In this document: in pieces, positions 1 through 11,361 of the stretch | Position numbering within the stretch: position 1 is the stretch's first letter | Layout: the number at the start of each line of letters is the position of its first letter | UHGV virus genome: UHGV-0806597 | Length of the DNA stretch: 11,361 nt | Strand: one strand, 5' to 3' | Source of the DNA: a virus | Made by a program: the position numbers and the translations under genes | Notes under the pieces: generated by a model | Seen by the model: the letters and a program-made list of their open reading frames with translations, nothing else | The model's database searches: none | What the model was told of the DNA's origin: nothing

Positions 1-99
1 ATTAGACATCAAGTATATACCCCGTTCCATCGTTGAAAAATTTCCTATCACCAACGATGCTAACCACAGTTCGACCAGGCGTTCGACATCGAAGCGTAT

Positions 100-558
100 A
101 TGCAGGATTATCAGGGCTTCAACACCCAGATGTGGGAGAAGTTTGGGGGTATCCAATTGCAAGACGAAGTGACGTTCTCTATCTCACGCCGCCGATTTGC
201 CGAGGTGATAGGCAACGGTGTTGGGATTGAACAACAACCTCAGGAAGGTGACCTGATCTATCTACCACTGGCGAACAAGATCTTCAAGGTCAACAACCCG
301 AACAACGATGAAGACTTCATGCAATTTGGCAAATGGTATACGTTCTCTCTGCCGTGCACGTTGTTCCAGTACGGCAACGAAAACTTCGATACGGGTGTTC
401 CGGAGATCGACGATATCGACAAACGTCTGTCCATCTTGGACGAAGAGAACGAACCGGACGTGTACAAGGATTCTTCTCTACAGACTGACAATGCTTTAGC
501 AGATGATCTTGAGAAGGGGCTTGCAACAGACAAGATGAAGATCGACTTTGGAGAATAA
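100..558 (+). CDS. hypothetical virion protein (152 aa), acidic C-terminus; possibly a neck-protein (gp14-like) homolog by position upstream of the gp15-like gene
   Basis: ATG at 100 follows in-frame stops at 34-36 and 61-63. The TAA stop at 556-558 sits inside the RBS region of the next gene (tGGAGaataatcATG). No motif I recognise; assignment is by synteny only. Confidence 0.45.
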   Translation: MQDYQGFNTQMWEKFGGIQLQDEVTFSISRRRFAEVIGNGVGIEQQPQEGDLIYLPLANKIFKVNNPNNDEDFMQFGKWYTFSLPCTLFQYGNENFDTGVPEIDDIDKRLSILDEENEPDVYKDSSLQTDNALADDLEKGLATDKMKIDFGE

Positions 559-560
559 TC

Positions 561-1088
561 ATGGCCAGACCATTTGAAAATTACTTCTACCATGATTCAT
601 TGATGAAATACATCAATCTGTTTGCCACCATTATGTCTGATCTGAAGGTGAACACAGAGCGTGGTCTTATGGAAGTCCCATTACACATGGCCATCGGGAG
701 ACGCAATGACCTCAACAGGAACGTGCCGTCCAACATGCTTCCATTTGCGACCTTCTCTTTTGGTCAGTTTGAGATCAACAAACAGGTGACGAAGACGTAC
801 CACAATCGACAATCGACACCAACAGCAGGGGCGAAGCAGCGAATCCCCCTGATTATCGATTTTGAGTACAATATCCGAACCAAGAAATTGGTTGAGATGT
901 TACAGGTGCTAGAGCAGGTTTATTCGGTATTCACTCCCTCTCTAGACTGTGGTATCAAGGACAACGATACACTACAGCAAGACCAGAAGATCAAGATCCA
1001 ACTGATCAAGCCTACCAGATGTCCGATAACTGGGAAGGGGATGCTTCTGATTCACCACACGTCGACTGCTCCTTCATGTTCCAGCTGA
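561..1088 (+). CDS. tail sheath stabiliser / tail completion protein (gp15-like), N-terminal portion; reading frame appears to break near 1015-1030
   Basis: GGAG lies 7 nt upstream of ATG 561. The N-terminus MARPFENYFYHDSLMKYINLF resembles my recollection of the T4 gp15 N-terminus (MFGYFYNSSFRRY...), and the gene sits immediately upstream of the small terminase as in T4. The last ~22 residues in this frame (CPITGKGMLLIHHTSTAPSCSS) look non-native. Confidence 0.5.
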   Translation: MARPFENYFYHDSLMKYINLFATIMSDLKVNTERGLMEVPLHMAIGRRNDLNRNVPSNMLPFATFSFGQFEINKQVTKTYHNRQSTPTAGAKQRIPLIIDFEYNIRTKKLVEMLQVLEQVYSVFTPSLDCGIKDNDTLQQDQKIKIQLIKPTRCPITGKGMLLIHHTSTAPSCSS

Positions 1089-1258
1089 GCGGCTTCATCT
1101 ACGGGTATGACTATTGGGTGGACAACGGTGGAGGCGGGGATCCTAACGGGATCAAAGAGATAATTATCGAAATGTCTAATGATTTGAAAACACCGTGGAC
1201 GGAACTGCCGGAGTGGTTCCGTGTTGACAAAGACGGTGTACATCATCCTGGAGATTGA
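1019..1258 (+). CDS. gp15-like C-terminal portion in the -1 frame (probable continuation of 561-1088 after a frameshift)
   Basis: Overlaps the previous ORF by 70 nt in another frame. Its translation (DCSFMFQLSGFIYGYDYWVDNGGG...) is globular-looking. No Shine-Dalgarno precedes ATG 1019. Its TGA stop at 1256-1258 abuts the small terminase start. Confidence 0.4.
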   Translation: MSDNWEGDASDSPHVDCSFMFQLSGFIYGYDYWVDNGGGGDPNGIKEIIIEMSNDLKTPWTELPEWFRVDKDGVHHPGD

Positions 1259-1260
1259 TT

Positions 1261-1968
1261 ATGAGTGCTATGTCAGAACGCCTATTATCCACCCTCAGTG
1301 CTATCCAAGCGCGGGATGAGGTCGCTCAAGAAGTCATGGAGAAGACCTCGCCTGTGGCTGGAAAGGATTACGATCCGGATACAGGCTTGTGGTTGGGTGA
1401 AAAGCCTGTGGGGTATGAGCCTGTGGTGTTTCCTCCTTCATTGGACCCAGAAGAGCTGAAGCCCAAGGAGTCTAAGGTTCCAGACTTCGAAGACACTGAT
1501 GCCACCACCGACTACAAACGCATCCGTGACACGACTTATGCCATGCAGGAAGCCACGATGTTCATGATGGGACAGGCAGCCAAACTTGCGACGACGACTG
1601 AAGCACCCCGCGCTTTCACAGTCTTCAAGGAGTTGGGTGAACTCATGCGCGGTCTGAACAAAGACCTGATGGAGAACCAGAAAACTATCAAGGCGGTCAC
1701 GGGCGACAGAGAGCCACCTCCTGGAGACGAAACAACCGTCGAGGTCACCACGTCCCCTGATGGCACAACCACGGTCAACGTCGGTAAACAGGCCAGGTCT
1801 TCTCGTGATCTACTGAAGACCATCGAAGACGCCCGTAAACGTGCTGAAGAACGTACTGCAGCGAAAGCTGCATCCAAAGGACCTGATCCCGAAGAAGATG
1901 TAATCGACGTTCAGGCGGAGCCACAGCCGAAGGAAGAAGGTGAAGACGATGGCGTATCAGAAACGTGA
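1261..1968 (+). CDS. terminase small subunit (gp16-like) with an extended acidic C-terminus
   Basis: GGAG at 1250-1253 lies 7 nt before ATG 1261 (the ORF track starts at TTG 1255). The central region (...YKRIRDTTYAMQEATMFMMGQAAKLATTTEAPRAFTVFKELGELMRGLNKDLMENQK) matches the pattern I recall for T4 gp16. It overlaps the large terminase start by 29 nt, as genes 16/17 do in T4. Confidence 0.65.
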   Translation: MSAMSERLLSTLSAIQARDEVAQEVMEKTSPVAGKDYDPDTGLWLGEKPVGYEPVVFPPSLDPEELKPKESKVPDFEDTDATTDYKRIRDTTYAMQEATMFMMGQAAKLATTTEAPRAFTVFKELGELMRGLNKDLMENQKTIKAVTGDREPPPGDETTVEVTTSPDGTTTVNVGKQARSSRDLLKTIEDARKRAEERTAAKAASKGPDPEEDVIDVQAEPQPKEEGEDDGVSET

Positions 1969-4159
1969 TGTAGAATACGCCCCGCTCAAGACGGGGTTTA
2001 AGACAGAAGACGTCAGACTGCGTATGGACCAAACGTTCATGCGCAAGCCGTCTGTGCGCGCTCCTCGAGTGGAGTTGATGCTAACAGATGAGCAGGAATC
2101 GGAGTTCGTCGAGTGTGCGATGGACGCCCATTACTTCGCCGCCAACTACTACAAGATCACGACCATCGATAAAGGCTTCATCCTCTTTGACATGCACGAT
2201 TATCAGAAGCAGTTGTTCCATGACTTCCAGGACTATCGATTCAATGTGGTCGTCCAGGCTCGTCAGTCTGGGAAATGTGTAAAAGGTGACACGCTTGTCA
2301 CAGTTTACGATACTCTCAGCCAAGAGGAGTTGATCCTGACCATAGGGGAGCTTCACAGCCGCTTTGAGGACGTCAACCACGCTGTGCCGCTGAATACCAT
2401 TGGCAACCATGACAAGTTCGTGGACAGCCGCTTCGGCAAACGTTACTTTGTACAATCCGATAGTGGCTGGGTTCCGGTTATCGCAGCGCATAAGACGAAG
2501 AAATATGCGGAATTCGTTATTGTGACTGTTACTGGGCGGCGAATTAACGTGGCCGATGAACATATGTTCTTCACTCCGGAAATGAAGGAGATATTTGCCA
2601 AAGACCTGAATGCTGGGTCATACATCATGACGTCAGAAGGTCCAGAAGAAATCCGTGAGATTTGGCAGACTGGTGAAATGCATCACATGTATGACCTACA
2701 GGTGAAATCTAGTGATCAGCGCTACTACACCAACGGCTTCCTCAGCCACAACACGACAGTTGTGGCAGCGTTCCTGCTCTGGTATGCAATGTTCCACTCC
2801 GACAAAGAGATCGCAGTACTGGCGAACAAAGAGAAGCAGGCGATTGAAATCCTAGATCGTATTCGCAAAGCATATCAAGATTTGCCATTCTTCCTCCAAC
2901 AGGGTTGTGAGAAGTTCGGTTCCACGCTGATAGAGTTCGAAAACGGATCAAAGATCTACGCCTATGCGACATCTTCCGACTCCATCCGTGGTCGATCTGT
3001 ATCGCTCCTGTATGTGGACGAAGTGGCGTTCATCGAAAACGACTTTGAGTTCTGGGAGTCTACATTCCCGGCGATTGCATCTGCGGATACTTCACGTTGT
3101 ATCTTGACCAGTACGCCGAAAGGTCAGCGCGGGTTGTTCTACGACATCGTCACCAAGGCGAATCCAGAACATCCACAATACAACGACTTCAAACTCACAG
3201 AGGTTCCATGGTATCGTGTTCCAACATACACCAAGGATCCGAACTGGGAATCCAAACAGAGGGCGAAGCTGGGCGATGCACGTTTCGATCAAGAATTTGG
3301 CATTAAGTTCCGTGGTTCTGTAGGATCGCTGATACCTGCCAAGTGTCTAGACAAGATGACCTCGAAACTCTATCAGGAGCCGAACGAGTTCACCAAGATC
3401 TACCACGATTACGATCCGAAGCGCATCTACATGGGTATCGCCGATACAGGCAAAGGTGTGGAGGGGGATTACTCTGTTCTGACCATCTTGGATATCACAG
3501 ACTATCCTCACAAGATTGCAGCCAAGTATCGGAACAACACGATACCTCCAATGATGTACGCGTACACAATCGCCGATATGGGCGAGAAGTATGGAACGTG
3601 TCCGATGCTAGTCGAGACCAACAACGACGTGGGTGGTCAGGTAATCACAATTCTATACCAGGAAATTGAATATCCCGAGATCATATTCACTACAACAGAT
3701 ACCAAGGGTACAGGCAAGAGAATCGGTGGTCGCCGCCCTGAGCCTGGTATCAATACCAACAAGAAGGTGCGCACAAACGGCTGCGCCAACCTGAAAGCCC
3801 TGATTGAACGTGAAATGCTGGTGATAGATGACCAGGACACGATAGATGAACTCAGTACATTCGTATGGACTGGGACAAGGTATGAAGCCGATGATGGTTG
3901 TCATGATGACTGTGTAATGCCTCTTGTGCTGTATGCATGGGCGGTGAAACAAGAATGGTTTAGTGACCTCACCAACTCCAGTATCTCAGTTGACATGAGA
4001 GGACGGTTGTCTGCGATGGAAGAATCACAGATGCTACCATTTGGAGGTATGATGTCGACGCCAGATCCTCACTCTGTGGAGAACATCCCAGGGTTCGGTG
4101 GAATTCAGGTTTATGATGAACGCTCTGGTATGTCTATGGAAGAATGGCTGAGACGGTGA
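1940..4159 (+). CDS. terL: terminase large subunit (gp17-like ATPase/nuclease), 739-aa precursor containing a 159-aa mini-intein; predicted spliced product 580 aa
   Basis: With the intein removed, the Walker A reads VVQARQSGK|TTVVAAFLLW (T4: SRQLGKTTVVAIFLAHF). Walker B is LLYVDEVAFI, the coupling motif is ILTSTPKG, the nuclease motifs are IADTGKG...DYSVLTILD and HDDCVMPLVLYAW (T4: HDDLVMSLVIFGW). Collinear with T4 gp17 as I recall it. Confidence 0.95.
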   Translation: MKTMAYQKRDVEYAPLKTGFKTEDVRLRMDQTFMRKPSVRAPRVELMLTDEQESEFVECAMDAHYFAANYYKITTIDKGFILFDMHDYQKQLFHDFQDYRFNVVVQARQSGKCVKGDTLVTVYDTLSQEELILTIGELHSRFEDVNHAVPLNTIGNHDKFVDSRFGKRYFVQSDSGWVPVIAAHKTKKYAEFVIVTVTGRRINVADEHMFFTPEMKEIFAKDLNAGSYIMTSEGPEEIREIWQTGEMHHMYDLQVKSSDQRYYTNGFLSHNTTVVAAFLLWYAMFHSDKEIAVLANKEKQAIEILDRIRKAYQDLPFFLQQGCEKFGSTLIEFENGSKIYAYATSSDSIRGRSVSLLYVDEVAFIENDFEFWESTFPAIASADTSRCILTSTPKGQRGLFYDIVTKANPEHPQYNDFKLTEVPWYRVPTYTKDPNWESKQRAKLGDARFDQEFGIKFRGSVGSLIPAKCLDKMTSKLYQEPNEFTKIYHDYDPKRIYMGIADTGKGVEGDYSVLTILDITDYPHKIAAKYRNNTIPPMMYAYTIADMGEKYGTCPMLVETNNDVGGQVITILYQEIEYPEIIFTTTDTKGTGKRIGGRRPEPGINTNKKVRTNGCANLKALIEREMLVIDDQDTIDELSTFVWTGTRYEADDGCHDDCVMPLVLYAWAVKQEWFSDLTNSSISVDMRGRLSAMEESQMLPFGGMMSTPDPHSVENIPGFGGIQVYDERSGMSMEEWLRR
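2276..2752 (+). other. mini-intein (Hint domain only, no homing-endonuclease domain) inserted between Lys and Thr of the terminase Walker A motif
   Basis: Begins with Cys (CVKGDTLVTV, block A-like) and ends ...MHHMYDLQVKSSDQRYYTNGFLSHN followed by Thr at +1 (blocks F/G-like, terminal His-Asn). Excising residues 113-271 restores a canonical GKTT P-loop. At 159 aa it is too short to carry an endonuclease domain. Confidence 0.85.
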
Positions 4160-4160
4160 T

Positions 4161-4169
4161 CACTAAATA
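4161..4169 (+). promoter_or_regulatory. candidate late-promoter -10-like element CACTAAATA upstream of the tail sheath gene
   Basis: CACTAAATA lies 42 nt upstream of ATG 4212 in the terminase-sheath intergenic region. The same 9-mer recurs upstream of the scaffold gene on the - strand. It resembles the T4 late-promoter core TATAAATA. Confidence 0.35.
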
Positions 4170-4211
4170 TCTTTCAAATTGAGCGAAACTCTACAGAGAA
4201 GGAATAAGATT

Positions 4212-6107
4212 ATGGCAACTCAAAGCTTCAGCGTTGCGCCGTCCGTACAGTGGACTGAGCGTGATGCCACGCTTCAGACGTCTCCATCCGTTGTTGTTCA
4301 GGGTGCGACTGTCGGCAAATTCCAATGGGGTGAAGCAGAACTCCCTGTGTTGGTCACTGGTGGTGAAACTGGTCTGGTGAAGAAATTCTTCAAGCCAAAC
4401 GATGCAACTGCCACCGACTTCTTGGTGATTGCTGACTTCCTGTCTTACAGCTCTGTTGCATGGGTGACCCGTGTGGTCGGTCCGGCGGCACGCAACGCTG
4501 TAACCAAAGGTCAGACTGCAATCCTTATCCGCAACAAACTAGACTTCGAAACTGCGTCCCCATCTGCGTCTATTACTTGGACAGGCCGCTATGCTGGCTC
4601 TCTGGGTAACGACATTGCTGTGAACATCTGTGACGCTGCGCTGTTCCCGACCTGGGAATTCCGTAACAACTTCGCATATGCTCCGCAGGATGGCGAGTAC
4701 CACATCGCCATCGTTGACAAAGTAGGTCGCATCACCGACTCTTCTGGCGCTGTTAGTCAGGTTGATCGTATCTCTGTATCCGGTACTGCCACCGCTGCTG
4801 GTTCCATCTCTGTTGCTGGGGAAGCCGTGGCGTACACTGACGCTGACACCCCGGCGACTCTGGCGACAAAGATCGGAACTGCGCTGACGTCTCTGTCTAG
4901 CGTGTATTCTTCTGTTGTCGTGAAGTCCAACACCGTCACCGTCACTCACAAAGCAATCGGTCCTCAGGCTGCGACTGCGATTGTTCCAGACGCGAATGGC
5001 CTGACTGCTACCGCTGCCGTCACCACTGTTGGTGCTTCCGGTACGATCATCGAGAAGTATGAACTGGTGCAGACCACTCAGGGTTCTAAGAAATCTGATG
5101 GATCCAATGCGTACTTCAAAGACGTGATCAACAGCACCTCAAATTGGGTGTACACCTTCGCCACTACCCTGGCTGCTGGTGTCATTGAACTCGAAGGTGG
5201 TGTAGACGATTACACTGGGAACCGTGTTGCGGCTATCCAGGCACTGAACAACGCCGAAGCGTATGATGCCAAGCCAGTGTTCGGTTTCTGTGAAGAACTG
5301 ATTGAGCAGCAGGCACTGATCGACCTGTCCACTGAGCGTAAAGACACAGTGTCCTTCGTGTCTCCTCTTCGCGATGCGGTCGTCGGAAACCGTGGCCGTG
5401 AGATGGAAGATGTTGTGGCCTGGCGTGAAAGCCTTGTTCGCGACTCCTCCTACTTCTTCATGGATGACAACTGGGCGTATGTGTACGACAAGTACAACGA
5501 CAAAATGCGTTGGATTCCGGCTTGTGGTGGCACCGCAGGTGTTTGGGCGCGAAGCATTGAAATCGCGGGTATCTACAAATCTCCGGCGTTCCACAACCGT
5601 GGTAAATACAACAACTATAATCGAATGGCGTGGTCTGCGTCTTCTGATGAGCGTGCTGTGCTATATCGCAACCAGATCAACAGCATCGTCACCTTCTCCA
5701 ACGAAGGCATCGTGTTGTACGGCGACAAGACTGGCCTGACCCGCCCATCTGCGTTCGACCGCATCAACGTTCGTGGTCTGTTCATTATGGCAGAACAGAA
5801 CATCGCAGCCATCGCCAAATACTACCTTGGTGAGAACAACGATGCATTCACTCGTGGGTTGTTCAGCAACGCTGTCCGCCCATATATCCGCCAGTTGGCC
5901 AACATGGGCGCGATCTATGACGGGATGGTGAAGTGTGACGAGGACAACAACACTGCGGAAGTTATCGCTGCGAACCAGATGGTCGCGGGTATTTGGCTCA
6001 AGCCGGAATACTCAATAAATTGGATATTTTTAGATTTCGCCGCCGTCCGCCCAGACATGGAGTTCTCCGAGATCGAATCCGGTGGTGGTATCGTTGCAGC
6101 CTCCTAA
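4212..6107 (+). CDS. contractile tail sheath protein (gp18-like)
   Basis: AAGGA lies 8 nt before ATG 4212 (the ORF track starts at in-frame TTG 4179). VGKFQWGEAE near the N-terminus matches T4 AGKFQWGPAF. The C-terminal block DKYNDKMRWIP...VLYGDKTGLTRPSAFDRINVRGLF...NNDAFTRGLF...SINWIFLDFAAV is collinear with T4 gp18 (DKYNDVNRWVP...VLYGDKT...PFDRINVRRLF...NNAFTRSSF...SINYITLNFVA). Confidence 0.9.
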   Translation: MATQSFSVAPSVQWTERDATLQTSPSVVVQGATVGKFQWGEAELPVLVTGGETGLVKKFFKPNDATATDFLVIADFLSYSSVAWVTRVVGPAARNAVTKGQTAILIRNKLDFETASPSASITWTGRYAGSLGNDIAVNICDAALFPTWEFRNNFAYAPQDGEYHIAIVDKVGRITDSSGAVSQVDRISVSGTATAAGSISVAGEAVAYTDADTPATLATKIGTALTSLSSVYSSVVVKSNTVTVTHKAIGPQAATAIVPDANGLTATAAVTTVGASGTIIEKYELVQTTQGSKKSDGSNAYFKDVINSTSNWVYTFATTLAAGVIELEGGVDDYTGNRVAAIQALNNAEAYDAKPVFGFCEELIEQQALIDLSTERKDTVSFVSPLRDAVVGNRGREMEDVVAWRESLVRDSSYFFMDDNWAYVYDKYNDKMRWIPACGGTAGVWARSIEIAGIYKSPAFHNRGKYNNYNRMAWSASSDERAVLYRNQINSIVTFSNEGIVLYGDKTGLTRPSAFDRINVRGLFIMAEQNIAAIAKYYLGENNDAFTRGLFSNAVRPYIRQLANMGAIYDGMVKCDEDNNTAEVIAANQMVAGIWLKPEYSINWIFLDFAAVRPDMEFSEIESGGGIVAAS

Positions 6108-6112
6108 CGCGC

Positions 6113-6132
6113 ATGCCCTCTTCGGAGGGCAT
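6113..6132 (+). terminator. stem-loop with UUCG tetraloop (ATGCCCTC-TTCG-GAGGGCAT) just after the sheath stop; possible terminator or mRNA-stabilising hairpin
   Basis: Perfect 8-bp stem with a TTCG loop, 5 nt after the TAA at 6105-6107, followed by TTTCAAT. Only a weak U-tract, so terminator function is uncertain. Confidence 0.35.
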
Positions 6133-6186
6133 TTCAATGGTCTCTCGCGGGTTAAAATGGAACGATTTTACTGAGAGAGCATCGAA

Positions 6187-6885
6187 ATGATCGGAAGTGT
6201 TTACAAAATTACAAATCTAGTCAATCAGAAAGCCTATATCGGTATCACCACAAGAGACCCAAGCCATAGGTGGTGGGAACATTGTAACAGCGCTCGAAAT
6301 GGTTCCGACTACGGTATCCATCAAGCTATTCGCAAGCACGGTGAAGAATCATTCTCGTTCCAAGTGATTGCCCAGACCAAGTCCATAAAAGATCTTAAAG
6401 AATTAGAGATCATCCTGATCAAGCAGCATGACACCCACATGTCAACTCAGAAAGGGTACAACAAAACTTGGGGCGGTGATGGTGCAACATTCACTGGCAA
6501 GACCGGCGCTATTGATGCATCGACCGGAGAGCGTATCGGCCTCGTAGACTGTGATGACCCTAGATGGTCGACAGGAGAGATAATACACTGCAAGGTCGGG
6601 GTCAAGCGTTCTTTCTCAAAGAGCCTGTCTGAATTCGCCAAAGCAAGAACCGGATCCAAGAACTCCAACGCCAAGCGATTCAAATTAGTATCTCCTTCCG
6701 GCGAAGAACACGAAATCCACGGGAACTGTCGTGAATATGTGGAGAGGTTGGGACTTAAATATTCAGCACTCTATGATTACATCGACAAGGGTATTCCAGT
6801 TCCACCACCGTCTGTGTATCATAGGAAAACTGCGACCGCAGAGCGTTTGAATACGACGGGTTGGCAGCTAATTAGAATTGTGTAA
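6187..6885 (+). CDS. free-standing GIY-YIG homing endonuclease (Seg / I-TevI-like)
   Basis: The N-terminus GSVYKITNLVNQKAYIGITTRDPSHRWWEH...IHQAIRKHGEESFSF...LKELEIILIKQH...YN has the GIY-(10-11 aa)-YIG spacing and the conserved Arg, Glu and Asn of the GIY-YIG fold. The C-terminal region (CDD...HCKVG; EHEIHGNCREYVERLGLKYSALYDYI) looks like a DNA-binding extension. It is inserted between the sheath and tube genes and has only a weak RBS. Confidence 0.85.
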   Translation: MIGSVYKITNLVNQKAYIGITTRDPSHRWWEHCNSARNGSDYGIHQAIRKHGEESFSFQVIAQTKSIKDLKELEIILIKQHDTHMSTQKGYNKTWGGDGATFTGKTGAIDASTGERIGLVDCDDPRWSTGEIIHCKVGVKRSFSKSLSEFAKARTGSKNSNAKRFKLVSPSGEEHEIHGNCREYVERLGLKYSALYDYIDKGIPVPPPSVYHRKTATAERLNTTGWQLIRIV

Positions 6886-6905
6886 CTCTTTCTGGAGAAT
6901 CTATA

Positions 6906-7439
6906 ATGGCTACAGTTAATGAATTCAGAGCAGCTATGTCACGCGGGGGCGGCGTTCAGCGCCAACACCGTTGGCGTGTAACTGTTAACTTCCCTTCCTT
7001 CGTGGCTGGAAGCGATACTATCCGTGATGTTTCGCTGTTGGCAGTGACCACAAATACCCCAACAGGCCAGCTCGGGGAAATACTCGTCCCATGGGGTGGT
7101 CGTGAACTTCCATTCCCAGGTGACCGCCGCTTCGAGGCTCTGCCTGTGACGTTCATCAACGTCGTGGACAACGCCCCGTATAACGCATTCGAAGTCTGGC
7201 AGCAGTATATCAACGGCAGCAACAACAACCGTGCGTCTGCTAACCCAGATGATTATTTCCGTGATGTAATCATGGAACTGCTGGATGCGAATGACAACGT
7301 CACCAAGACTTGGACCCTTCAGGGCACCTGGCCTCAGAACCTCGGTCAGCTGGAACTGGACATGTCTGCAATGGACTCTTATACTCAGTTCACTGTTGAC
7401 CTGCGTTACTTCCAGGCCATCTCAGACAAGTCTCTCTAA
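6906..7439 (+). CDS. tail tube protein (gp19-like)
   Basis: GGAGA lies 7 nt before ATG 6906. The C-terminal TWTLQGTWPQNLGQLELDMSAMDSYTQFTVDLRYF parallels T4 gp19 IEIKGLWPTNVGELQLDWDSNNEIQTFEVTLALDYWE as I recall it. Position between sheath and portal genes is as in T4. Confidence 0.85.
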   Translation: MATVNEFRAAMSRGGGVQRQHRWRVTVNFPSFVAGSDTIRDVSLLAVTTNTPTGQLGEILVPWGGRELPFPGDRRFEALPVTFINVVDNAPYNAFEVWQQYINGSNNNRASANPDDYFRDVIMELLDANDNVTKTWTLQGTWPQNLGQLELDMSAMDSYTQFTVDLRYFQAISDKSL

Positions 7440-7440
7440 T

Positions 7441-7498
7441 GTCCTCAGTGCTGGGGGATCTTATTCCCCCTCACTAATTACAAGAAAATGTTGAGGAC
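7441..7498 (+). promoter_or_regulatory. nested hairpin in the tube-portal intergenic region; the outer stem overlaps the portal Shine-Dalgarno
   Basis: Inner stem GGGGGA (7453-7458) pairs with TCCCCC (7465-7470) around a 6-nt loop. Outer stem GTCCTCA (7441-7447) pairs with TGAGGAC (7492-7498), which contains the GAGGA SD of the portal ATG at 7505. Confidence 0.3.
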
Positions 7499-7504
7499 TT
7501 AATC

Positions 7505-8317
7505 ATGGCATTCGGTAATGGTGCATTCGGAAATGGGTTCTTCGGCCTGTTCGGTAGAGGCGGCAAAGTAGAAGCGCCGATTGATACCGACAAGATGGTC
7601 ACGAACCAAGAAGAGAAGTTGCTTTCAAAAGCGACTGTTGTTGCGCTGGACGATTCTCAGGATGGTTCCATCATCCTCCAGGGCGGCGCGAACACATTCA
7701 ATTTCGTTGGTGTTGAGAATGAGTTGCTCAACGTCAAACAGCTGGTCGAAGAGTACCAGTCTATGGCTCAGCAGCCTGAGATTCGTAAGGCTGTGGATAT
7801 CATTGTCAACGATATCGTCACCTGTGAAGAGGATGAGACTCCTGTAACCATCAACCTGGAAAAGGTAGATGGCATCACAAACGAAGTCAAAGAAAAGATC
7901 ACTGACGCATTCAAAGAGATCATGCATCTCCTTGACTTTGACAACACGGCGTATCAGAAGATCCGCAAATGGTATATTGAAGGCCGTCAGGCATTCCACG
8001 TTGTAGTGGACCCGAAGAACAAGAAAGCGGGTATCGCCAAACTCATCATGATGGACTCACGCTGTATCCGCCCAGTGTACATCGTTCAAAAGGCGATGCG
8101 CGACGGTATCGAAGTCATCAATGACGTAAAACTTCAATACTACTACAACCCGAACTACAACCGCAACCAATTCACTGGCCAGTCCGGAACGTCTCAGAAC
8201 TTCCAACCGTCACAGCAAGAGCTGGTGTTTGATGATGAGAGCATAGTGTATCTGGACAGTGGTGAAGAGCCTCTGGCGAATGGGGTTGTGCCAAGCCTGC
8301 CGAAGCGACGATTATAG
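7505..8317 (+). CDS. portal protein (gp20-like), N-terminal fragment only (~265 native residues, then 5 foreign residues PKRRL and a stop)
   Basis: NTAYQKIRKWYIEGRQAFHVVVDPKNKKAGIAKL matches T4 gp20 [32 protein letters not shown] as I recall it. The frame ends 17 nt past the inverted-repeat boundary at 8300; the rest of the portal is on the - strand at 10386-11361. Confidence 0.85.
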   Translation: MAFGNGAFGNGFFGLFGRGGKVEAPIDTDKMVTNQEEKLLSKATVVALDDSQDGSIILQGGANTFNFVGVENELLNVKQLVEEYQSMAQQPEIRKAVDIIVNDIVTCEEDETPVTINLEKVDGITNEVKEKITDAFKEIMHLLDFDNTAYQKIRKWYIEGRQAFHVVVDPKNKKAGIAKLIMMDSRCIRPVYIVQKAMRDGIEVINDVKLQYYYNPNYNRNQFTGQSGTSQNFQPSQQELVFDDESIVYLDSGEEPLANGVVPSLPKRRL

Positions 8318-9138
8318 TCGGCCAACTGACGCTTGATAGATTCTTTCAGCTCTTTGTCTGTTTCATCTTCATCGTCATCTTCATCGCCTTCTTTCTTAGG
8401 CTTTTTGCCTTCGGCTTTAACATCTTTGTTGTCGTCATCGCCGTCTTTACCGCCGACTTTGTCCTGGAAGTCATCGTCATCGTCATCACCTTCTTTCTTC
8501 ACGGACTTACCTTCTACCAGGTTGCGGAAGGTGTGTACGCGGGAAGCGAATTCGCTTTCGGTGGTGAACTGCACAGCTTCCAGCAGATTGACAACCGTTG
8601 CTTTCTTGGTGTCGACCATACCTTCACAGACACGGGCGATCACAGAGTCACGCAGAGTCGCATTCGCGGCTTCTTTGATTTGACGGTTTTCGCTTTCGGC
8701 AATCGCAGCACGTCGTTCTGCTTCGGTCAGGCGGGCAGTCAGCGCAGCGATCTGGCCGTTTTCGTCGGTGGCAAAGTTAATACCAGCTTCTTTCAGAACA
8801 CCAGTCAGGCCAGTCAGCAGATTTTCAGCCGCTTCACGTTTGATCTGAGCATCGATTGCAGGAGCGTTCTTGTTAGCCCACTCTTCTACAACAGCATTCA
8901 GGAAGCCATCGACTTTGGTCGCGATTTCCATCAAGTGAGACTCTTTCAGCTGAGCAATCTCAGCCTGATGAGCTTCAACCAGACGCAGGCGCTCAATATT
9001 GGCAGCGTTTTCGGTTTCTTGAATAGCGGTCAGGCGAGCGGCTTCTACTTTAGATTCCAGCAGACCAGACACTTTATCCAGGAAGTCGGTGCTGAGGCCG
9101 TTAACGCCCTCAAACAGTTTTTGCAATTCAGGTTTCAT
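8194..9138 (-). CDS. prohead core scaffold protein (gp22-like); the C-terminal ~36 codons run antisense through the portal fragment and are probably not native
   Basis: AAGGAAA lies 6 nt before ATG (9138-9136). The protein is highly charged and helical-looking with a poly-Asp/Glu tract (EGDDDDDDFQD...GDEDDDEDETDKE). It follows the protease gene as gp22 follows gp21 in T4. After ...KRQLADYNRR the frame crosses the repeat junction at 8300/8301 and gives unrelated sequence (FGRLGTTPFARGSSPL...). Confidence 0.7.
   Translation of the reverse strand: MKPELQKLFEGVNGLSTDFLDKVSGLLESKVEAARLTAIQETENAANIERLRLVEAHQAEIAQLKESHLMEIATKVDGFLNAVVEEWANKNAPAIDAQIKREAAENLLTGLTGVLKEAGINFATDENGQIAALTARLTEAERRAAIAESENRQIKEAANATLRDSVIARVCEGMVDTKKATVVNLLEAVQFTTESEFASRVHTFRNLVEGKSVKKEGDDDDDDFQDKVGGKDGDDDNKDVKAEGKKPKKEGDEDDDEDETDKELKESIKRQLADYNRRFGRLGTTPFARGSSPLSRYTMLSSSNTSSCCDGWKF
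8224..8300 (+). repeat. left arm of a 77-bp perfect inverted repeat (portal codons ...VFDDESIVYLDSGEEPLANGVVPSL)
   Basis: Base-by-base comparison: 8224-8300 equals the reverse complement of 11285-11361 at every position. Identity ends at 8301 (c, versus t expected). Confidence 0.95.
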
Positions 9139-9165
9139 GATTGTTTCCTTCTGAACGATTTTCAG

Positions 9166-9174
9166 TATTTAGTG
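9166..9174 (-). promoter_or_regulatory. candidate late-promoter -10-like element CACTAAATA upstream of the scaffold gene
   Basis: The - strand reads CACTAAATACTGAAAATCGTTCAGAAGGAAACAATCATG, placing the 9-mer 27 nt upstream of the scaffold ATG. It is identical to the 9-mer upstream of the sheath gene. Confidence 0.35.
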
Positions 9175-9183
9175 AGGCTGAAT

Positions 9184-9852
9184 TCAGCCCAGATGTTTCA
9201 ATGCGATATCGAGGCGGCGCAGGAAGTCGTCTTCTAACTGAATATTGGTTTTCACCAATGAATCGACCACATGCCCCTTAATGTCCTTAGGAACCCAAAT
9301 TCCTGAAGATTCATCAAGCTGCCATTCCACAGATTCGCTCACAGCCTTTACATAACAAACTTGTCCAGAAGGACGGTCGACTGCATCAACAGCAGTGAGC
9401 ATAAAGCCGGGTTGAACGTCATCATAGCCGTTCACTGACTTGGTCTCACCAAGGCCACGTGTAGACACGGCCAGGTTGAAGTCTGCTTCAGCCAGAGCAC
9501 GAATGATCTGACCTTTCGGTGTATTCAGGATCCGCGCTCGACCGATAGCGTTGGTGCCTTCCCAGCGCAAAGATTCGGTTTTGAGTGCAGCGTGTTCGAT
9601 ATCGGGGAAAGGATAATCCGGATGCTTGAGTTCACCGATTGCACGACGATCCTGGATATACTCTTTGTCGTATGCTTCGACAGCAGGGATACCCACCTTT
9701 TGGAGATCGTAGTTGCGACCATTACGGTTCACCTGGTTACACATCACGAATGGACCTTCGATGTACATGGCTTTGCCGCCAGTAGCCGTGGCCGCTTCAC
9801 CAATCTGAAGGTCTTTCCCTATCGCAGTGATCTCACGCAACAGTTTCATCAT
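9184..9852 (-). CDS. prohead protease (gp21-like)
   Basis: AAGGAG precedes tandem ATGs at 9852 and 9849; the second has the better spacing. Motifs GELKHPD and LAVSTRGLG match what I recall of the T4 gp21 / prohead-protease family. Position between gp68-like and scaffold genes is as in T4. Confidence 0.8.
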   Translation of the reverse strand: MMKLLREITAIGKDLQIGEAATATGGKAMYIEGPFVMCNQVNRNGRNYDLQKVGIPAVEAYDKEYIQDRRAIGELKHPDYPFPDIEHAALKTESLRWEGTNAIGRARILNTPKGQIIRALAEADFNLAVSTRGLGETKSVNGYDDVQPGFMLTAVDAVDRPSGQVCYVKAVSESVEWQLDESSGIWVPKDIKGHVVDSLVKTNIQLEDDFLRRLDIALKHLG

Positions 9853-9859
9853 TCGCTCC

Positions 9860-10165
9860 TTAACTCAGCCCCATCATACGACGGAACTTCATTGCTTTTT
9901 TCTTACGACGCTCGATTTTGCGCTGGTATCCCATACCCATGCGTTTCTTGGCTCGGATCGCCTTGCGGTTGCCCAGCTTGCGAGTACGGCGCTCACTGGC
10001 GACCATCACCTCACAACGGGAACCATCCGCAGACAGTTTGAAACCAGGAGCACACTGCAGACGGCGACGGCGTTTGCCTTTTGCGTTCACCTTGTCAATG
10101 ACTTTCTGCTCATCCATGCGGGAAGCCAGGAAATCAGCGAACGTTGCAACTTCTTCGATTTCCAT
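9860..10165 (-). CDS. prohead core protein (gp68-like), very basic C-terminal half
   Basis: GAGGAA lies 6 nt before ATG (10165-10163). 101 aa with an Arg/Lys-rich tail (KGKRRRRL...RKKKAMKFRR). Its TAA stop sits immediately upstream of the protease SD. Assignment rests on size, composition and the T4 order 67-68-21. Confidence 0.55.
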   Translation of the reverse strand: MEIEEVATFADFLASRMDEQKVIDKVNAKGKRRRRLQCAPGFKLSADGSRCEVMVASERRTRKLGNRKAIRAKKRMGMGYQRKIERRKKKAMKFRRMMGLS

Positions 10166-10177
10166 GATACATTCCTC

Positions 10178-10348
10178 TTACTGGTCGTCGCCGAAAGGAC
10201 CCATGTCTTGGCTCAGGGAGTTCAAGACATATTCAGTACCCTGCTGGACCAGTTCTTGGGCGCGAGCGGACAGCTCCATTTCGCATTCAGCAGCAGCGGC
10301 ATCAGTATCACCAGCGATGATTGCTTTTACCAGATCGATAGCAGCCAT
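10178..10348 (-). CDS. small acidic prohead core protein (gp67-like)
   Basis: GAGGA lies 7 nt before ATG (10348-10346). The ORF track extends it to a GTG at 10399, which would overlap the portal stop. Small, acidic (ends ...MGPFGDDQ), directly downstream of the portal C-terminal fragment as gene 67 follows gene 20 in T4. Confidence 0.5.
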   Translation of the reverse strand: MAAIDLVKAIIAGDTDAAAAECEMELSARAQELVQQGTEYVLNSLSQDMGPFGDDQ

Positions 10349-10385
10349 GTTCATATCCTCTAAATGTTTTCTATACTTAGTCGAA

Positions 10386-11361
10386 TTATTCTTCACCACC
10401 AGGAGGGTTAGTCGCTGGGATGACGTTAGGTCTGAATTTCAGTGGACTGACTTCCCCGCTGCCGAAGCCGCCGGACTCATCTGCCTGTACTTCAGGATAT
10501 TTGCCTTCTTTCTTCTCTTTCGCGATCTTCTCTTGCTGGTCTTTGATGTCTTCATCGGACATACGCAGCAAATTGCGTTGAGCAAAATCGATAGAGAAGA
10601 GAGTGCCGATATATGGTTCGATCTGACCGAGAGCCGCCATACGCTGTGACAAGATTTCGTTCTCTTGTTGTTCACGGATGAAGCTGTCAGAAGTGAATTC
10701 GAACTTGACGAACGGCTTGATCTTCTCATTCCAGTCAGCCTGATCTGTAATGCCTTTCAATATCAGCTGACGGCGCAGAAGTTCCAGGAAAATACCAGAA
10801 GAATAACGACGGCGCAGGCTCGCACAGAACTTGTTGAAGCGCAATTCTTCCTGTGTGATTTCAGCAAGATTGGAACCACCGATGTTGATGGAACCTTCCT
10901 CTTGCAGGCGGCTCTTAGGGATCATCAGAGCCTCGTAGAGCTTCTCGCGGAAGTATACCACATGATCCATTTGACCCAGTTGATCGCCACCGCCTACGTT
11001 GGAGATCTCGGTTGCGTTCTGCCCTTCGCGACGTGGTAGCCAGTAGTCCTCAGCGATACCCATCAAATGAGTGTTACCAGCCACCTTACCAGTGGTGCGA
11101 TCATACGCCAGACGGTTCTTGAATTTGCCCATCATGGCTTGCATGTATTCTTCGGCCGACTTCTTACCCAGCGTACCCACGTCGAGATAGAACGCTCGCT
11201 TCTCAGGAGCACGTGTGATCGCATAGATTACCGTTGCATCTTCAGTTGTAACAAGGTTGTTCAGGGGACGGATAGCCGGGTTCAGCAGGCTTGGCACAAC
11301 CCCATTCGCCAGAGGCTCTTCACCACTGTCCAGATACACTATGCTCTCATCATCAAACACC
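10386..11361 (-). CDS. portal protein (gp20-like), C-terminal portion; 5' end runs off the window
   Basis: ATVIYAITRAPEKRAFYLDVGTL...NRLAYDRTTGKV...EDYWLPRREGQNATE...LILKGITDQADWNEKI is collinear with T4 gp20 [23 protein letters not shown]...NRVVYDASTGKI...EDYWLQRRDGKAVTE...LLLKGIITEDEWNDEI as I recall it. The first 25 codons in the window are the inverted-repeat copy of the end of the + strand portal fragment. The 'M' at 11360 in the ORF track is just a GTG at the window edge. Confidence 0.85.
   Translation of the reverse strand, partial: VFDDESIVYLDSGEEPLANGVVPSLLNPAIRPLNNLVTTEDATVIYAITRAPEKRAFYLDVGTLGKKSAEEYMQAMMGKFKNRLAYDRTTGKVAGNTHLMGIAEDYWLPRREGQNATEISNVGGGDQLGQMDHVVYFREKLYEALMIPKSRLQEEGSINIGGSNLAEITQEELRFNKFCASLRRRYSSGIFLELLRRQLILKGITDQADWNEKIKPFVKFEFTSDSFIREQQENEILSQRMAALGQIEPYIGTLFSIDFAQRNLLRMSDEDIKDQQEKIAKEKKEGKYPEVQADESGGFGSGEVSPLKFRPNVIPATNPPGGEE
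11285..11361 (-). repeat. right arm of the 77-bp perfect inverted repeat (truncated by the window end, may be longer)
   Basis: The reverse complement of 11285-11361 is identical to 8224-8300. The match is still perfect at the last base of the window. Confidence 0.95.

What the first reader, a model, noticed from the sequence alone, without database searches (positions are those of the whole stretch)
4161..4169. Recurring CACTAAATA motif upstream of the sheath and scaffold genes: candidate late promoter variant
The identical 9-mer occurs twice in the window, both times in short intergenic spacers immediately upstream of genes that are abundant late products in T4 (sheath, 42 nt before ATG; scaffold at 9166-9174 on the - strand, 27 nt before ATG). 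It follows the orientation of the downstream gene in both cases. It resembles the T4 gp55-dependent late promoter TATAAATA but with a C at the second position, as reported for some distant T4-like phages. I found no exact TATAAATA in the window.
Basis: partly seen in the sequence, partly recalled or inferred. Interest (0 to 1): 0.5.

Follow-up and report, generated by a model that had tools for sequence, protein, structure and literature searches.

The report
Known late-gene promoter motif, ViI-like phage
The repeated CACTAAATA is real and is very probably the late-gene promoter (core CTAAATA) of a ViI-like (Ackermannviridae) phage, read by the phage's own T4-type sigma factor; the motif has already been published for this phage group, so it is a sound but ordinary finding.

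Summary
Observation confirmed. CACTAAATA is at 4161-4169 (+), 42 nt before the sheath ATG, and at 9166-9174 (-), 27 nt before the scaffold ATG. There is no exact TATAAATA. A repeated 9-mer alone means nothing here (about 750-800 recur in the window); position and comparative data carry the case.

The window is an Ackermannviridae (Agtrevirus-like) phage, about 98% identical to phage AV101. In the complete AV101 genome, CTAAATA is the most enriched 7-mer upstream of genes. All 18 copies are co-oriented with transcription. Thirteen lie 23-42 nt before a start codon, mostly of structural genes. There is no -35 element, and A is enriched at the predicted start. AV101 encodes gp55, gp33 and gp45 homologs.

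The motif is conserved upstream of gp14/18/19/20/67/22/23 in seven genera, including a Vibrio phage with otherwise unrelated spacers.

The functional core is (a)CTAAATA; the leading C of the 9-mer is incidental. The window holds three more sites: CTAATTA before tube and portal, CTAAGTA before the gp67-position ORF.

Interpretation supported, but already known: CTAAATA for Aeh1 (2006) and CTAAATAcCcc for ViI-like phages. No start-site mapping was found.

Side notes: the window is an inverted chimera at 8304/8305, and some family promoters sit inside hairpins that mask the ribosome site.

The parts
4163..4169 (+). By analogy with T4 it spans -12 to -6, with the predicted start near 4175-4176.
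   Evidence: Exact match. It lies 42 nt before ATG 4212, in the 52-nt TerL-sheath spacer. The same motif at the same place occurs in 7 genera, including Vibrio phage GR28A where the flanks are unrelated. The spacer has no significant RNA structure (z=+0.33).
9166..9172 (-). Predicted start at 9160 (A).
   Evidence: Exact match. It lies 27 nt before ATG 9138. It is conserved upstream of gp22 in all 7 genera at 27-29 nt. There is no significant RNA structure (z=-0.66).
7474..7480 (+). Predicted start at 7486 (A).
   Evidence: (I2). It lies 24 nt before ATG 7505. The orthologous site is canonical CTAAATA in MAM1 and Ea2809 and CTAAGTA in GR28A.
6868..6874 (+). CTAATTA variant inside the 3' end of the GIY-YIG endonuclease ORF: candidate late promoter of the tail tube gene (gp19).
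   Evidence: It lies 31 nt before ATG 6906. The orthologous site is CTAAATA in MAM1 and Ea2809. It is weaker than the others because CTAATTA is also its own near-palindrome.
10374..10380 (-). CTAAGTA variant: candidate late promoter of the small gp67-position ORF (10348-10178, - strand) downstream of portal.
   Evidence: It lies 25 nt before the start. The orthologous site is CTAAATA in CBA120 and MAM1.
4212..6107 (+). Tail sheath gene (gp18), the gene served by the first site.
   Evidence: phrog_23 tail sheath, E=2.7e-112. Annotated as such in relatives.
8305..9138 (-). Prohead scaffold gene (gp22), the gene served by the second site. It is cut about 11 nt before its stop by the chimeric joint.
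   Evidence: phrog_237 head scaffolding protein, E=2e-65. The joint was mapped by blastn against AV101.
7441..7498 (+). Structured tube-portal spacer: a GC-rich hairpin (7453-7470) plus pairing of GUCCUCA (7441-) with the portal Shine-Dalgarno UGAGGAC (-7498). The pairing encloses the portal promoter variant.
   Evidence: dG -24.3 kcal/mol, z=-3.05. Similar anti-SD/SD pairing is predicted in CBA120, MAM1 and Ea2809, with one compensatory change. It is absent in KN2-1 and GR28A.

Best explanation
The two CACTAAATA copies are T4-type late promoters of an Ackermannviridae (ViI-like, Agtrevirus-type) phage.

The functional element is a single -10-like box, (a)CTAAATA, corresponding to T4 TATAAATA at -13..-6 with C instead of A at -12. 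There is no -35 element.

Inferred mechanism, by homology with T4. Host RNA polymerase core carrying the phage's gp55-like late sigma factor, helped by the gp33-like coactivator and the gp45 sliding clamp loaded on replicating DNA, melts the box. It then starts transcription about 6 nt downstream (about 4175 for sheath, 9160 for scaffold). This gives short 5' UTRs of about 22-37 nt ahead of abundant virion genes.

In this family position -12 is C>A>T and position -8 tolerates A>>G,T. That accounts for three further sites in the window, before the tube, portal and gp67-position genes.

Shown here: occurrence, genome-wide enrichment, orientation, spacing, gene class, conservation, absence of a -35 element, and presence of the machinery in a ~98% identical relative. 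Inferred: that gp55-RNA polymerase actually initiates there, and when.
For: The window is Ackermannviridae, 97.5-99.4% identical to AV101.

AV101 whole genome:
- CTAAATA is the most enriched 7-mer in -70..-1 of all 199 genes, ahead of Shine-Dalgarno words.
- There are 18 copies, none antisense, and 13 lie 23-42 nt before a co-oriented start (p=4e-20).
- Downstream genes include gp48, gp22, gp18, gp14, VriC, three tailspikes, gp6 and uvsW.
- Sites are associated with structural/lysis-type genes (OR 13, p=9e-9).
- The single-substitution scan shows T-11, A-10, A-9, T-7 and A-6 are strict, while -12 and -8 are relaxed.
- There is no information content from -57 to -14, and A occurs at the predicted +1 in 22 of 32 sites.

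Other genera: six loci show 32 copies on the coding strand against 1 on the other, with 24 lying 15-50 nt before annotated starts. Orthologous conservation is seen upstream of gp14/18/19/20/67/22/23 even in a Vibrio phage.

Machinery in AV101: gp55 (phrog_234, 2.6e-52), gp33 (Pfam Trans_coact, 64 bits against a cutoff of 25) and gp45 (phrog_223).

Literature: Aeh1 late consensus (a/g)CTAAATA (PMC1524935; PMC2988020). CTAAATAcCcc is listed as a characteristic regulatory motif of these phages (PMC7283392). T4 late promoter architecture and gp55 recognition (PMC7892883; PMC2988020).
Against: No transcript 5'-end data for any Ackermannviridae phage were found in the searched library, so promoter activity and timing are inferred.

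gp55, gp33 and gp45 lie outside the window and were seen only in a close relative.

The two reported sites lack the 'cCcc' tail of the published motif (they have tCtt and cTga).

Four to five of the 18 AV101 copies lie inside coding sequence, away from starts. A few sites precede genes not expected to be late (DNA polymerase with TTAAATA, regA, mobD.6).

In T4 the -12 A is flipped into a gp55 pocket. How a C is accommodated here is unknown. T4 and AV101 gp55 are too diverged for BLASTP to align.
Confidence: 0.86

Rival explanations
1. Chance repeat: two copies of an A/T-rich 9-mer that happen to fall in two A/T-richer spacers, with no function.
For: About 750-800 distinct 9-mers recur in the window. 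With only ~300-400 nt of true spacer, a shared 9-mer between two spacers is not vanishingly rare. TAAATA alone is not over-represented in the window (4 against 2.1 expected).
Against: Genome-wide enrichment, strict strand bias, a narrow distance band and gene-class association in AV101. Replication in six other genera. Conservation in otherwise unalignable spacers.
Confidence: 0.01
2. A host sigma-70 (or other non-gp55) promoter whose -10 box happens to read TAAATA, driving early or constitutive transcription.
For: The box is A/T-rich and lies where a -10 element would lie. The family does have a separate sigma-70-like motif, TTCAAT[N14]TATAAT (PMC7283392; TTCAATA is also enriched upstream of genes).
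Against: No sigma-70-type prediction overlaps any of the sites in the window. There is no information content at -35, and best TTGACA matches are mostly 1-3 of 6. TAAATA lacks the near-invariant final T of TATAAT. The downstream genes are overwhelmingly virion genes. The distinct TTCAAT...TATAAT motif already accounts for sigma-70-type promoters.
Confidence: 0.04
3. An RNA-level signal in the 5' UTR (a processing or cleavage site, a translational operator, or one arm of a regulatory hairpin) rather than a DNA promoter. It would also be strand-specific and at a fixed distance from start codons.
For: Strand specificity and fixed spacing fit an mRNA element as well as a promoter. In about 8 of 32 AV101 sites, and in CBA120 TSP2-4 and gp6, the 3' half of the motif is the 5' arm of a strong hairpin reaching the start codon.
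Against: The two reported spacers show no significant structure. No Rfam family matches. The invariant bases are those of the T4 late box, not of the hairpin arms, which vary. The sequence match to the T4/Aeh1 late promoter plus the presence of gp55/gp33/gp45 gives a direct reader for a DNA signal. The hairpins are better explained as an added layer on top of the promoter.
Confidence: 0.06
4. Binding site of some other phage-encoded DNA-binding regulator (for example the FmdB-family zinc-ribbon protein encoded next to gp33 in AV101), acting as activator or repressor at late genes.
For: An FmdB-family regulatory protein is annotated adjacent to gp33 in AV101. Nothing here excludes an additional factor.
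Against: A 7-bp asymmetric A/T box without dyad symmetry or a repeat is atypical for a regulator site. Its position and sequence coincide with the -10-like late box. No evidence links that protein to the motif.
Confidence: 0.03

Closest known systems
Bacteriophage T4 late promoters (TATAAATA at -13..-6; gp55 sigma, gp33 coactivator, gp45 sliding clamp)
   Same: A single -10-like A/T box with invariant T-A-A-(A)-T-A, and no -35 element. The box is co-oriented and close upstream of virion genes. There is a purine at the predicted start. The same three-protein machinery is encoded by the relative (PMC2988020, PMC7892883).
   Different: C (less often A or T) at -12, where T4 has a near-invariant A that is flipped into a gp55 pocket. 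A is preferred at -13 instead of T. Position -8 tolerates G or T. The gp55 homolog is 263 aa against 185 aa and is not alignable to T4 gp55 by BLASTP. The phage family is different (Ackermannviridae, not Straboviridae).
Aeromonas phage Aeh1 predicted late promoters, consensus (a/g)CTAAATA (Nolan et al. 2006, PMC1524935)
   Same: The same sequence, including C at -12 and a/g at -13. It was likewise found by motif search upstream of orthologs of T4 late genes. The gp55 is likewise noted as strongly diverged.
   Different: Aeh1 is a T4-like (Straboviridae) Aeromonas phage, so this may be an independent lineage. Both are in silico predictions. Whether the two gp55 proteins share the change that accepts C was not tested.
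'CTAAATAcCcc' conserved regulatory motif of ViI-like phages (genus 'Viunalikevirus', now family Ackermannviridae)
   Same: The same core in the same phage family. The AV101 position matrix reproduces it. It is cited as one of two characteristic motifs in PMC7283392. From my own recollection it originates from Adriaenssens et al. 2012, Arch Virol 157:2035, which could not be opened here.
   Different: The two sites in the finding lack the cCcc tail (tCtt, cTga). The tail seems to belong to a subset of sites where it forms a hairpin arm complementary to the ribosome-binding region.
T4 genes translated only from late transcripts (e, soc, 49, I-TevI): the late promoter sits inside a hairpin that masks the ribosome-binding site in read-through early transcripts
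   Same: In AV101 and CBA120 tailspike, gp6, gp14 and PG-binding genes, the box lies in the 5' arm of a hairpin whose 3' arm abuts the ATG. The predicted start would remove the 5' arm. In the window's portal spacer, an anti-SD upstream of the box pairs with the SD.
   Different: This comparison rests on my own knowledge of the T4 cases, not on a paper read here. It applies only weakly to the two reported sites (dG difference -4.9 and -2.9 kcal/mol).

Membership tests
T4-type gp55-dependent late promoter | A -10-like box matching TATAAATA (invariant TAAATA part) about one helical turn upstream of the start | tested here: met
   CTAAATA matches 7 of the last 7 positions except -12 (C for A). T-11, A-10, A-9, T-7 and A-6 are strict in the substitution scan.
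T4-type gp55-dependent late promoter | No conserved -35 element | tested here: met
   Information content is <=0.28 bit at every position from -57 to -14 across 32 AV101 sites. No sigma-70-type prediction overlaps the window sites.
T4-type gp55-dependent late promoter | Located upstream of, and co-oriented with, late (virion/lysis) genes | tested here: met
   The window has sites before sheath, tube, portal, the gp67-position ORF and scaffold. In AV101, 18 of 33 structural/lysis-type genes carry a site against 14 of 166 others (p=9e-9). The same holds in six other genera.
T4-type gp55-dependent late promoter | The phage encodes the gp55 late sigma factor, gp33 coactivator and gp45 sliding clamp | tested here: met
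   This was tested in the ~98% identical relative AV101, not in the window, which does not contain these genes. gp55 hits phrog_234 at 2.6e-52, gp33 hits Pfam PF16805 at 64 bits, and gp45 hits phrog_223 at 1e-64.
T4-type gp55-dependent late promoter | Primary transcript 5' ends about 6 nt downstream, appearing late and dependent on gp55 and DNA replication | not testable with these tools
   No start-site data for the family were found. The only indirect support is A at the predicted +1 in 22 of 32 sites.
T4-type gp55-dependent late promoter | A at -12 recognised by the gp55 pocket (Y97 in T4) | tested here: not met
   -12 is C in 19, A in 7 and T in 6 of 32 sites. A tentative alignment pairs T4 H95/Y97 with F/W in AV101 gp55, but BLASTP finds no significant similarity. 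This makes it a variant of the T4 consensus, as in Aeh1.
Ackermannviridae 'CTAAATAcCcc' motif | CTAAATA core | tested here: met
Ackermannviridae 'CTAAATAcCcc' motif | C-rich tail cCcc directly downstream | tested here: not met
   The window sites read CTAAATAtctt and CTAAATActga. In AV101 the tail is present at about 7-11 of 13 sites per position.
Sigma-70 promoter | TTGACA-like -35 and TATAAT-like -10 at 16-18 nt spacing | tested here: not met

The most novel reading that the evidence does not exclude
In Ackermannviridae the late promoter doubles as a translational gate. At a subset of late genes (tailspikes, gp6, gp14, a PG-binding protein, and probably portal) the box and its 'cCcc' tail form the 5' arm of a hairpin. 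The 3' arm of that hairpin covers the ribosome-binding region. Only transcripts that start at the late promoter, inside or after that arm, would then be translatable, while read-through transcripts would be silent. This would explain why the published family motif carries a C-rich tail that the sheath and scaffold sites lack. A second, weaker strand: the C at -12, shared with Aeh1, may be matched by changes in the gp55 base pocket (T4 H95/Y97 to F/W).
Probability: 0.4. Interest if true: 0.4.

Novelty: already known. Interest (0 to 1): 0.15.

Why it matters
It matters mainly for annotation. It marks the transcription units of the virion-gene block of a ViI-like phage. It also shows that late-promoter searches in this family should use (a)[C/A/T]TAA[A/G/T]TA rather than T4's TATAAATA. 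The Ag3 paper searched with TATAAATA allowing one mismatch and found few convincing sites (PMC3121705). The CBA120 paper stated the signal was unidentified (PMC3184105). These phages are used for biocontrol and as reporter and engineering chassis, so a reliable late promoter is practically useful. Scientifically it adds no new principle: a C at -12 was already described for Aeh1, and the motif was already listed for this family.

Tried and rejected
- The Adriaenssens et al. 2012 'Viunalikevirus' paper could not be opened by DOI or PMC id. The attribution of CTAAATAcCcc to it, and whether it calls the motif a late promoter, rest on my memory and on the citation in PMC7283392.
- The 2024 Ackermannviridae review contains no mention of promoters or transcription.
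- Three literature searches for transcriptomics or start-site mapping in the family found nothing relevant.
- Pfam has no hit for the gp55 and gp45 homologs; PHROGs was needed.
- A PDB sequence search with AV101 gp55 found nothing. BLASTP of T4 against AV101 gp55 gave no alignment, so the pocket-residue comparison is only a lead.
- The Rfam scan found nothing at the sites.
- The idea that the full 9-mer, with its CA prefix, is the unit was rejected. Only the A is preferred.
- The idea that the two reported spacers carry a structured RNA was rejected.
- I ran no further search on gp55. That question is peripheral to the finding.

Full report
**1. Observation**

CACTAAATA occurs exactly twice, at 4161-4169 (+) and 9166-9174 (-). 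The first copy lies in the 52-nt spacer between the large terminase and the tail sheath gene, 42 nt before ATG 4212. The second lies in the 45-nt spacer between the prohead protease and scaffold genes, 27 nt before ATG 9138 on the - strand. Gene identities come from PHROGs and from annotated relatives. There is no exact TATAAATA, and the 1-mismatch hits are in coding sequence.

The shuffle test for this specific word gives 0 of 200 shuffles with two copies. However, 749-809 different 9-mers recur in this window. Recurrence alone is therefore no evidence, and the case must rest on position and on comparison.

**2. What the window is**

The window is not T4. It is an Ackermannviridae (ViI-like) phage of the Agtrevirus type. 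It is 97-98% identical over 3-8304 to Salmonella phage vB_CECAV_050, Enterobacter phage fGh-Ecl02 and Escherichia phage AV101.

The window is also chimeric. Bases 3-8304 match AV101 forward (97.5%). Bases 8298-11361 match the reverse complement of AV101 from the middle of the portal gene to 11 nt before the scaffold stop (99.4%). There is a 7-nt overlap at the joint, and the last 81 nt are an inverted copy of 8224-8304. In every relative examined the whole gp13-gp23 block is co-directional. The second copy being on the - strand is therefore a by-product of this inversion.

**3. Genome-wide test in AV101**

It used the complete AV101 genome (156,759 bp, 199 annotated CDS).

- CTAAATA occurs 18 times on both strands together. 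All 18 copies are co-oriented with local transcription and none is antisense (p=8e-6).
- Thirteen copies lie 23-42 nt upstream of a co-oriented start codon. Only 1.6% of genome positions fall in the 20-45 nt band (p=4e-20).
- In an unbiased ranking of all 7-mers by enrichment in the 70 nt upstream of genes, CTAAATA comes first (13 of 18 copies, p=6e-15). It ranks ahead of the Shine-Dalgarno words.
- The genes served are gp48, gp22, gp18, gp14, VriC, three tailspikes, gp6, uvsW, mobD.6 and two hypotheticals.

When the tolerated variants are included there are 32 sites. Eighteen of 33 structural/lysis-type genes carry a site, against 14 of 166 other genes (odds ratio 13, p=9e-9).

**4. Anatomy of the element**

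A scan of all single substitutions of CTAAATA shows which positions are strict.

| Word | Copies in the 20-45 nt band |
|---|---|
| CTAAATA | 13 of 18 |
| ATAAATA | 7 of 12 |
| TTAAATA | 6 of 15 |
| GTAAATA | 2 of 13 |
| CTAAGTA | 3 of 7 (gp23, gp67-position ORF, regA) |
| CTAATTA | 3 of 8 (portal, tube, one hypothetical) |

Changes at the other five positions fall to about background. With T4 numbering this gives -12 = C>A>T, -8 = A>>G,T, and strict T-11, A-10, A-9, T-7 and A-6.

The base before the C is A in 8 of 13 sites. The base before that is C in only 4 of 13. Downstream, the position matrix reproduces the published 'cCcc' tail. There is no information content anywhere from -57 to -14, so there is no -35 element. 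An unselected position, the predicted +1, is A in 22 of 32 sites.

In the window itself, five CTAA[A/G/T]TA sites precede a co-oriented start, and all lie 24-42 nt from it:

| Coordinates | Strand | Gene served |
|---|---|---|
| 4163-4169 | + | sheath |
| 6868-6874 | + | tube |
| 7474-7480 | + | portal |
| 9166-9172 | - | scaffold |
| 10374-10380 | - | gp67-position ORF |

**5. Conservation**

Loci were taken from six other genera: CBA120 (Kuttervirus), 0507-KN2-1 (Taipeivirus), phiMAM1 (Miltonvirus), phiEa2809 (Nezavisimistyvirus), Ds25CZ (Limestonevirus) and Vibrio phage GR28A (Campanilevirus).

The box is present at the orthologous place upstream of gp14, gp18, gp19, gp20, gp67, gp22 and gp23. 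In the Vibrio phage nothing else in the spacers is alignable. Where the window's lineage has CTAATTA or CTAAGTA, MAM1 and Ea2809 have canonical CTAAATA at the same spot. This shows the variants are orthologous to canonical sites.

Counting with those records' own annotations, CTAAATA occurs 32 times on the coding strand and once on the other. Twenty-four copies lie 15-50 nt before an annotated start (p=8e-9).

**6. Mechanism**

AV101 encodes homologs of the T4 late-transcription proteins:

- gp55: phrog_234 'late sigma transcription factor', 2.6e-52.
- gp33: Pfam Trans_coact, 64 bits against a cutoff of 25.
- gp45 clamp: phrog_223.

T4 late promoters consist only of TATAAATA at -13..-6, without a -35 element. 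They are read by gp55-RNA polymerase and activated through gp33 and the DNA-loaded clamp (PMC2988020; PMC7892883). The simplest reading is that (a)CTAAATA is the equivalent box for the Ackermannviridae gp55.

In T4 the A at -12 and the A at -8 are each flipped into gp55 pockets (Y97 and T99). These are exactly the two positions that differ or are relaxed here. A two-sequence alignment pairs T4 H95 and Y97 with F and W in AV101 and keeps N13, R57, F86 and T99. BLASTP finds no significant similarity, so this is only a lead.

**7. Rivals**

- *Chance* is excluded by sections 3 and 5.
- *A sigma-70 promoter* is not supported. No prediction overlaps the sites, there is no -35 signal, and the family has a separate sigma-70-like motif, TTCAAT[N14]TATAAT.
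- *A purely RNA-level signal* would also be strand-specific and distance-constrained. But the two reported spacers have no significant structure (z=+0.33 and -0.66), and no Rfam family matches. The invariant bases are also those of the T4 box.
- *Another DNA-binding regulator* cannot be excluded, but nothing points to one.

**8. Comparison with what is known**

- CTAAATA with C at -12 was reported as the predicted late consensus of Aeromonas phage Aeh1. That paper also notes that Aeh1 gp55 is strongly diverged (PMC1524935). The T4 review summarises the consensus as a/gC at -13/-12.
- For ViI-like phages, the CBA120 paper said the late signal was not yet identified.
- The Ag3 paper searched with TATAAATA allowing one mismatch.
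- The LIMEstone paper predicted 33 late promoters without giving a consensus.
- The EspM4VN paper lists CTAAATAcCcc as one of two characteristic regulatory motifs of these phages. By my recollection this comes from the 2012 'Viunalikevirus' genus proposal, which I could not open.
- No transcription-start mapping for the family was found.

The motif and its likely role are therefore already in the literature. Its promoter function remains a prediction.

**9. Side finding**

In about 8 of the 32 AV101 sites, the 3' half of the box plus the cCcc tail forms the 5' arm of a 10-16 bp hairpin (dG -16 to -22 kcal/mol). The 3' arm (GGGGTATTT) abuts the start codon. From the predicted +1 onward the structure is lost.

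The same arrangement is found at CBA120 TSP2, TSP3, TSP4 and gp6. The loops differ but the stems are preserved (z about -4 to -6.6).

In the window, the tube-portal spacer folds significantly (dG -24.3, z=-3.05). An anti-SD upstream of the box pairs with the portal SD. A similar pairing is predicted in CBA120, MAM1 and Ea2809, with one compensatory change. It is absent in KN2-1 and the Vibrio phage.

This resembles the T4 arrangement at e, soc, 49 and I-TevI (my own knowledge). It would explain the C-rich tail of the published motif. It applies only weakly to the two sites of the finding.

**10. Verdict**

The finding is already known in kind and in this family, so interest is low. The most novel reading still open is the promoter-in-hairpin translational gate, together with possible gp55 pocket co-variation.

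Noticed in passing
window 8224-8304 and 8298-11361 (joint at 8304/8305; inverted repeat 8224-8304 / 11281-11361): The window is an inverted chimera. The right-hand 3 kb is the reverse complement of portal-middle to scaffold-end, joined to the portal N-half through a 7-nt overlap. The window ends in an 81-nt inverted copy of portal sequence. Both the portal and scaffold ORFs are truncated and read through into antisense sequence. In all relatives the block is co-linear. It looks like an assembly or amplification fold-back artefact, or a rearranged defective genome.
   Followed up: partly
window ~1007 and ~1013 (gp15, ORF 561-1088; continuation in another frame 1019-1258): Two 1-nt insertions relative to AV101 shift the frame of the tail-sheath-stabilizer gene (gp15). 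The apparent 166-nt 'spacer' 1089-1254 is really the gp15 C-terminal coding region. This is either a sequencing error or a pseudogene.
   Followed up: partly
window 1940-4159 (large terminase), roughly residues 113-270: The large terminase carries a mini-intein-like insert in the Walker A loop (...QSGK|CVKGDTLV...FLSHN|TTVV...). Pfam Intein_splicing scores 30 bits, which is below the 35.8 cutoff. The Erwinia phage Ea2809 homolog is annotated about 156 aa shorter.
   Followed up: partly
window 6187-6885: A free-standing GIY-YIG homing endonuclease gene sits between the sheath and tube genes (Pfam GIY-YIG 35.6 bits; phrog_314). Occupancy of this slot differs among genera: a different or double endonuclease, an opposite-strand ORF in Ds25CZ, and none in Ea2809 and GR28A. 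The candidate tube promoter CTAATTA lies inside its 3' end.
   Followed up: partly
window 7441-7498: The tube-portal spacer folds significantly (dG -24.3, z=-3.05). It has a GC-rich terminator-like hairpin plus an anti-SD (GUCCUCA) pairing with the portal SD (UGAGGAC), and the candidate portal promoter lies between them. The pairing is partly conserved, with one compensatory change (Ea2809 UCCUCU/AGAGGA).
   Followed up: partly
AV101 genome (L002-L005), e.g. record 143794-143840, 146280-146325, 149862-149910, 71990-72030; CBA120 L013 upstream of orf211, orf212, orf213, orf217: A promoter-in-hairpin arrangement. AAATAcccc... from the late box pairs with ...ggggtattt directly before the ATG of tailspike, gp6, gp14 and PG-binding genes (dG -16 to -22). 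It is conserved between two subfamilies, with different loops. It may explain the 'cCcc' tail of the published motif.
   Followed up: partly
AV101 L003:34935-35726 (-) versus T4 L012:3601-4158 (-): The Ackermannviridae gp55 homolog is 263 aa against 185 aa in T4 and is not detectably similar by BLASTP. A tentative alignment keeps T4 N13, R57, F86 and T99 but replaces the base-pocket residues H95 and Y97 by F and W. These pockets read -9 and -12. Position -12 is the one that is C in this family.
   Followed up: partly
window 9175-9188 (- strand) and 9151-9165 (- strand): The scaffold promoter box is flanked by two small palindromes. GGCTGAATTCAGCC overlaps the protease stop codon just upstream. 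CTGAAAATCGTTCAG lies just downstream, around the predicted start. Both are conserved across the enterobacterial genera, but the spacer as a whole does not fold better than shuffles.
   Followed up: no
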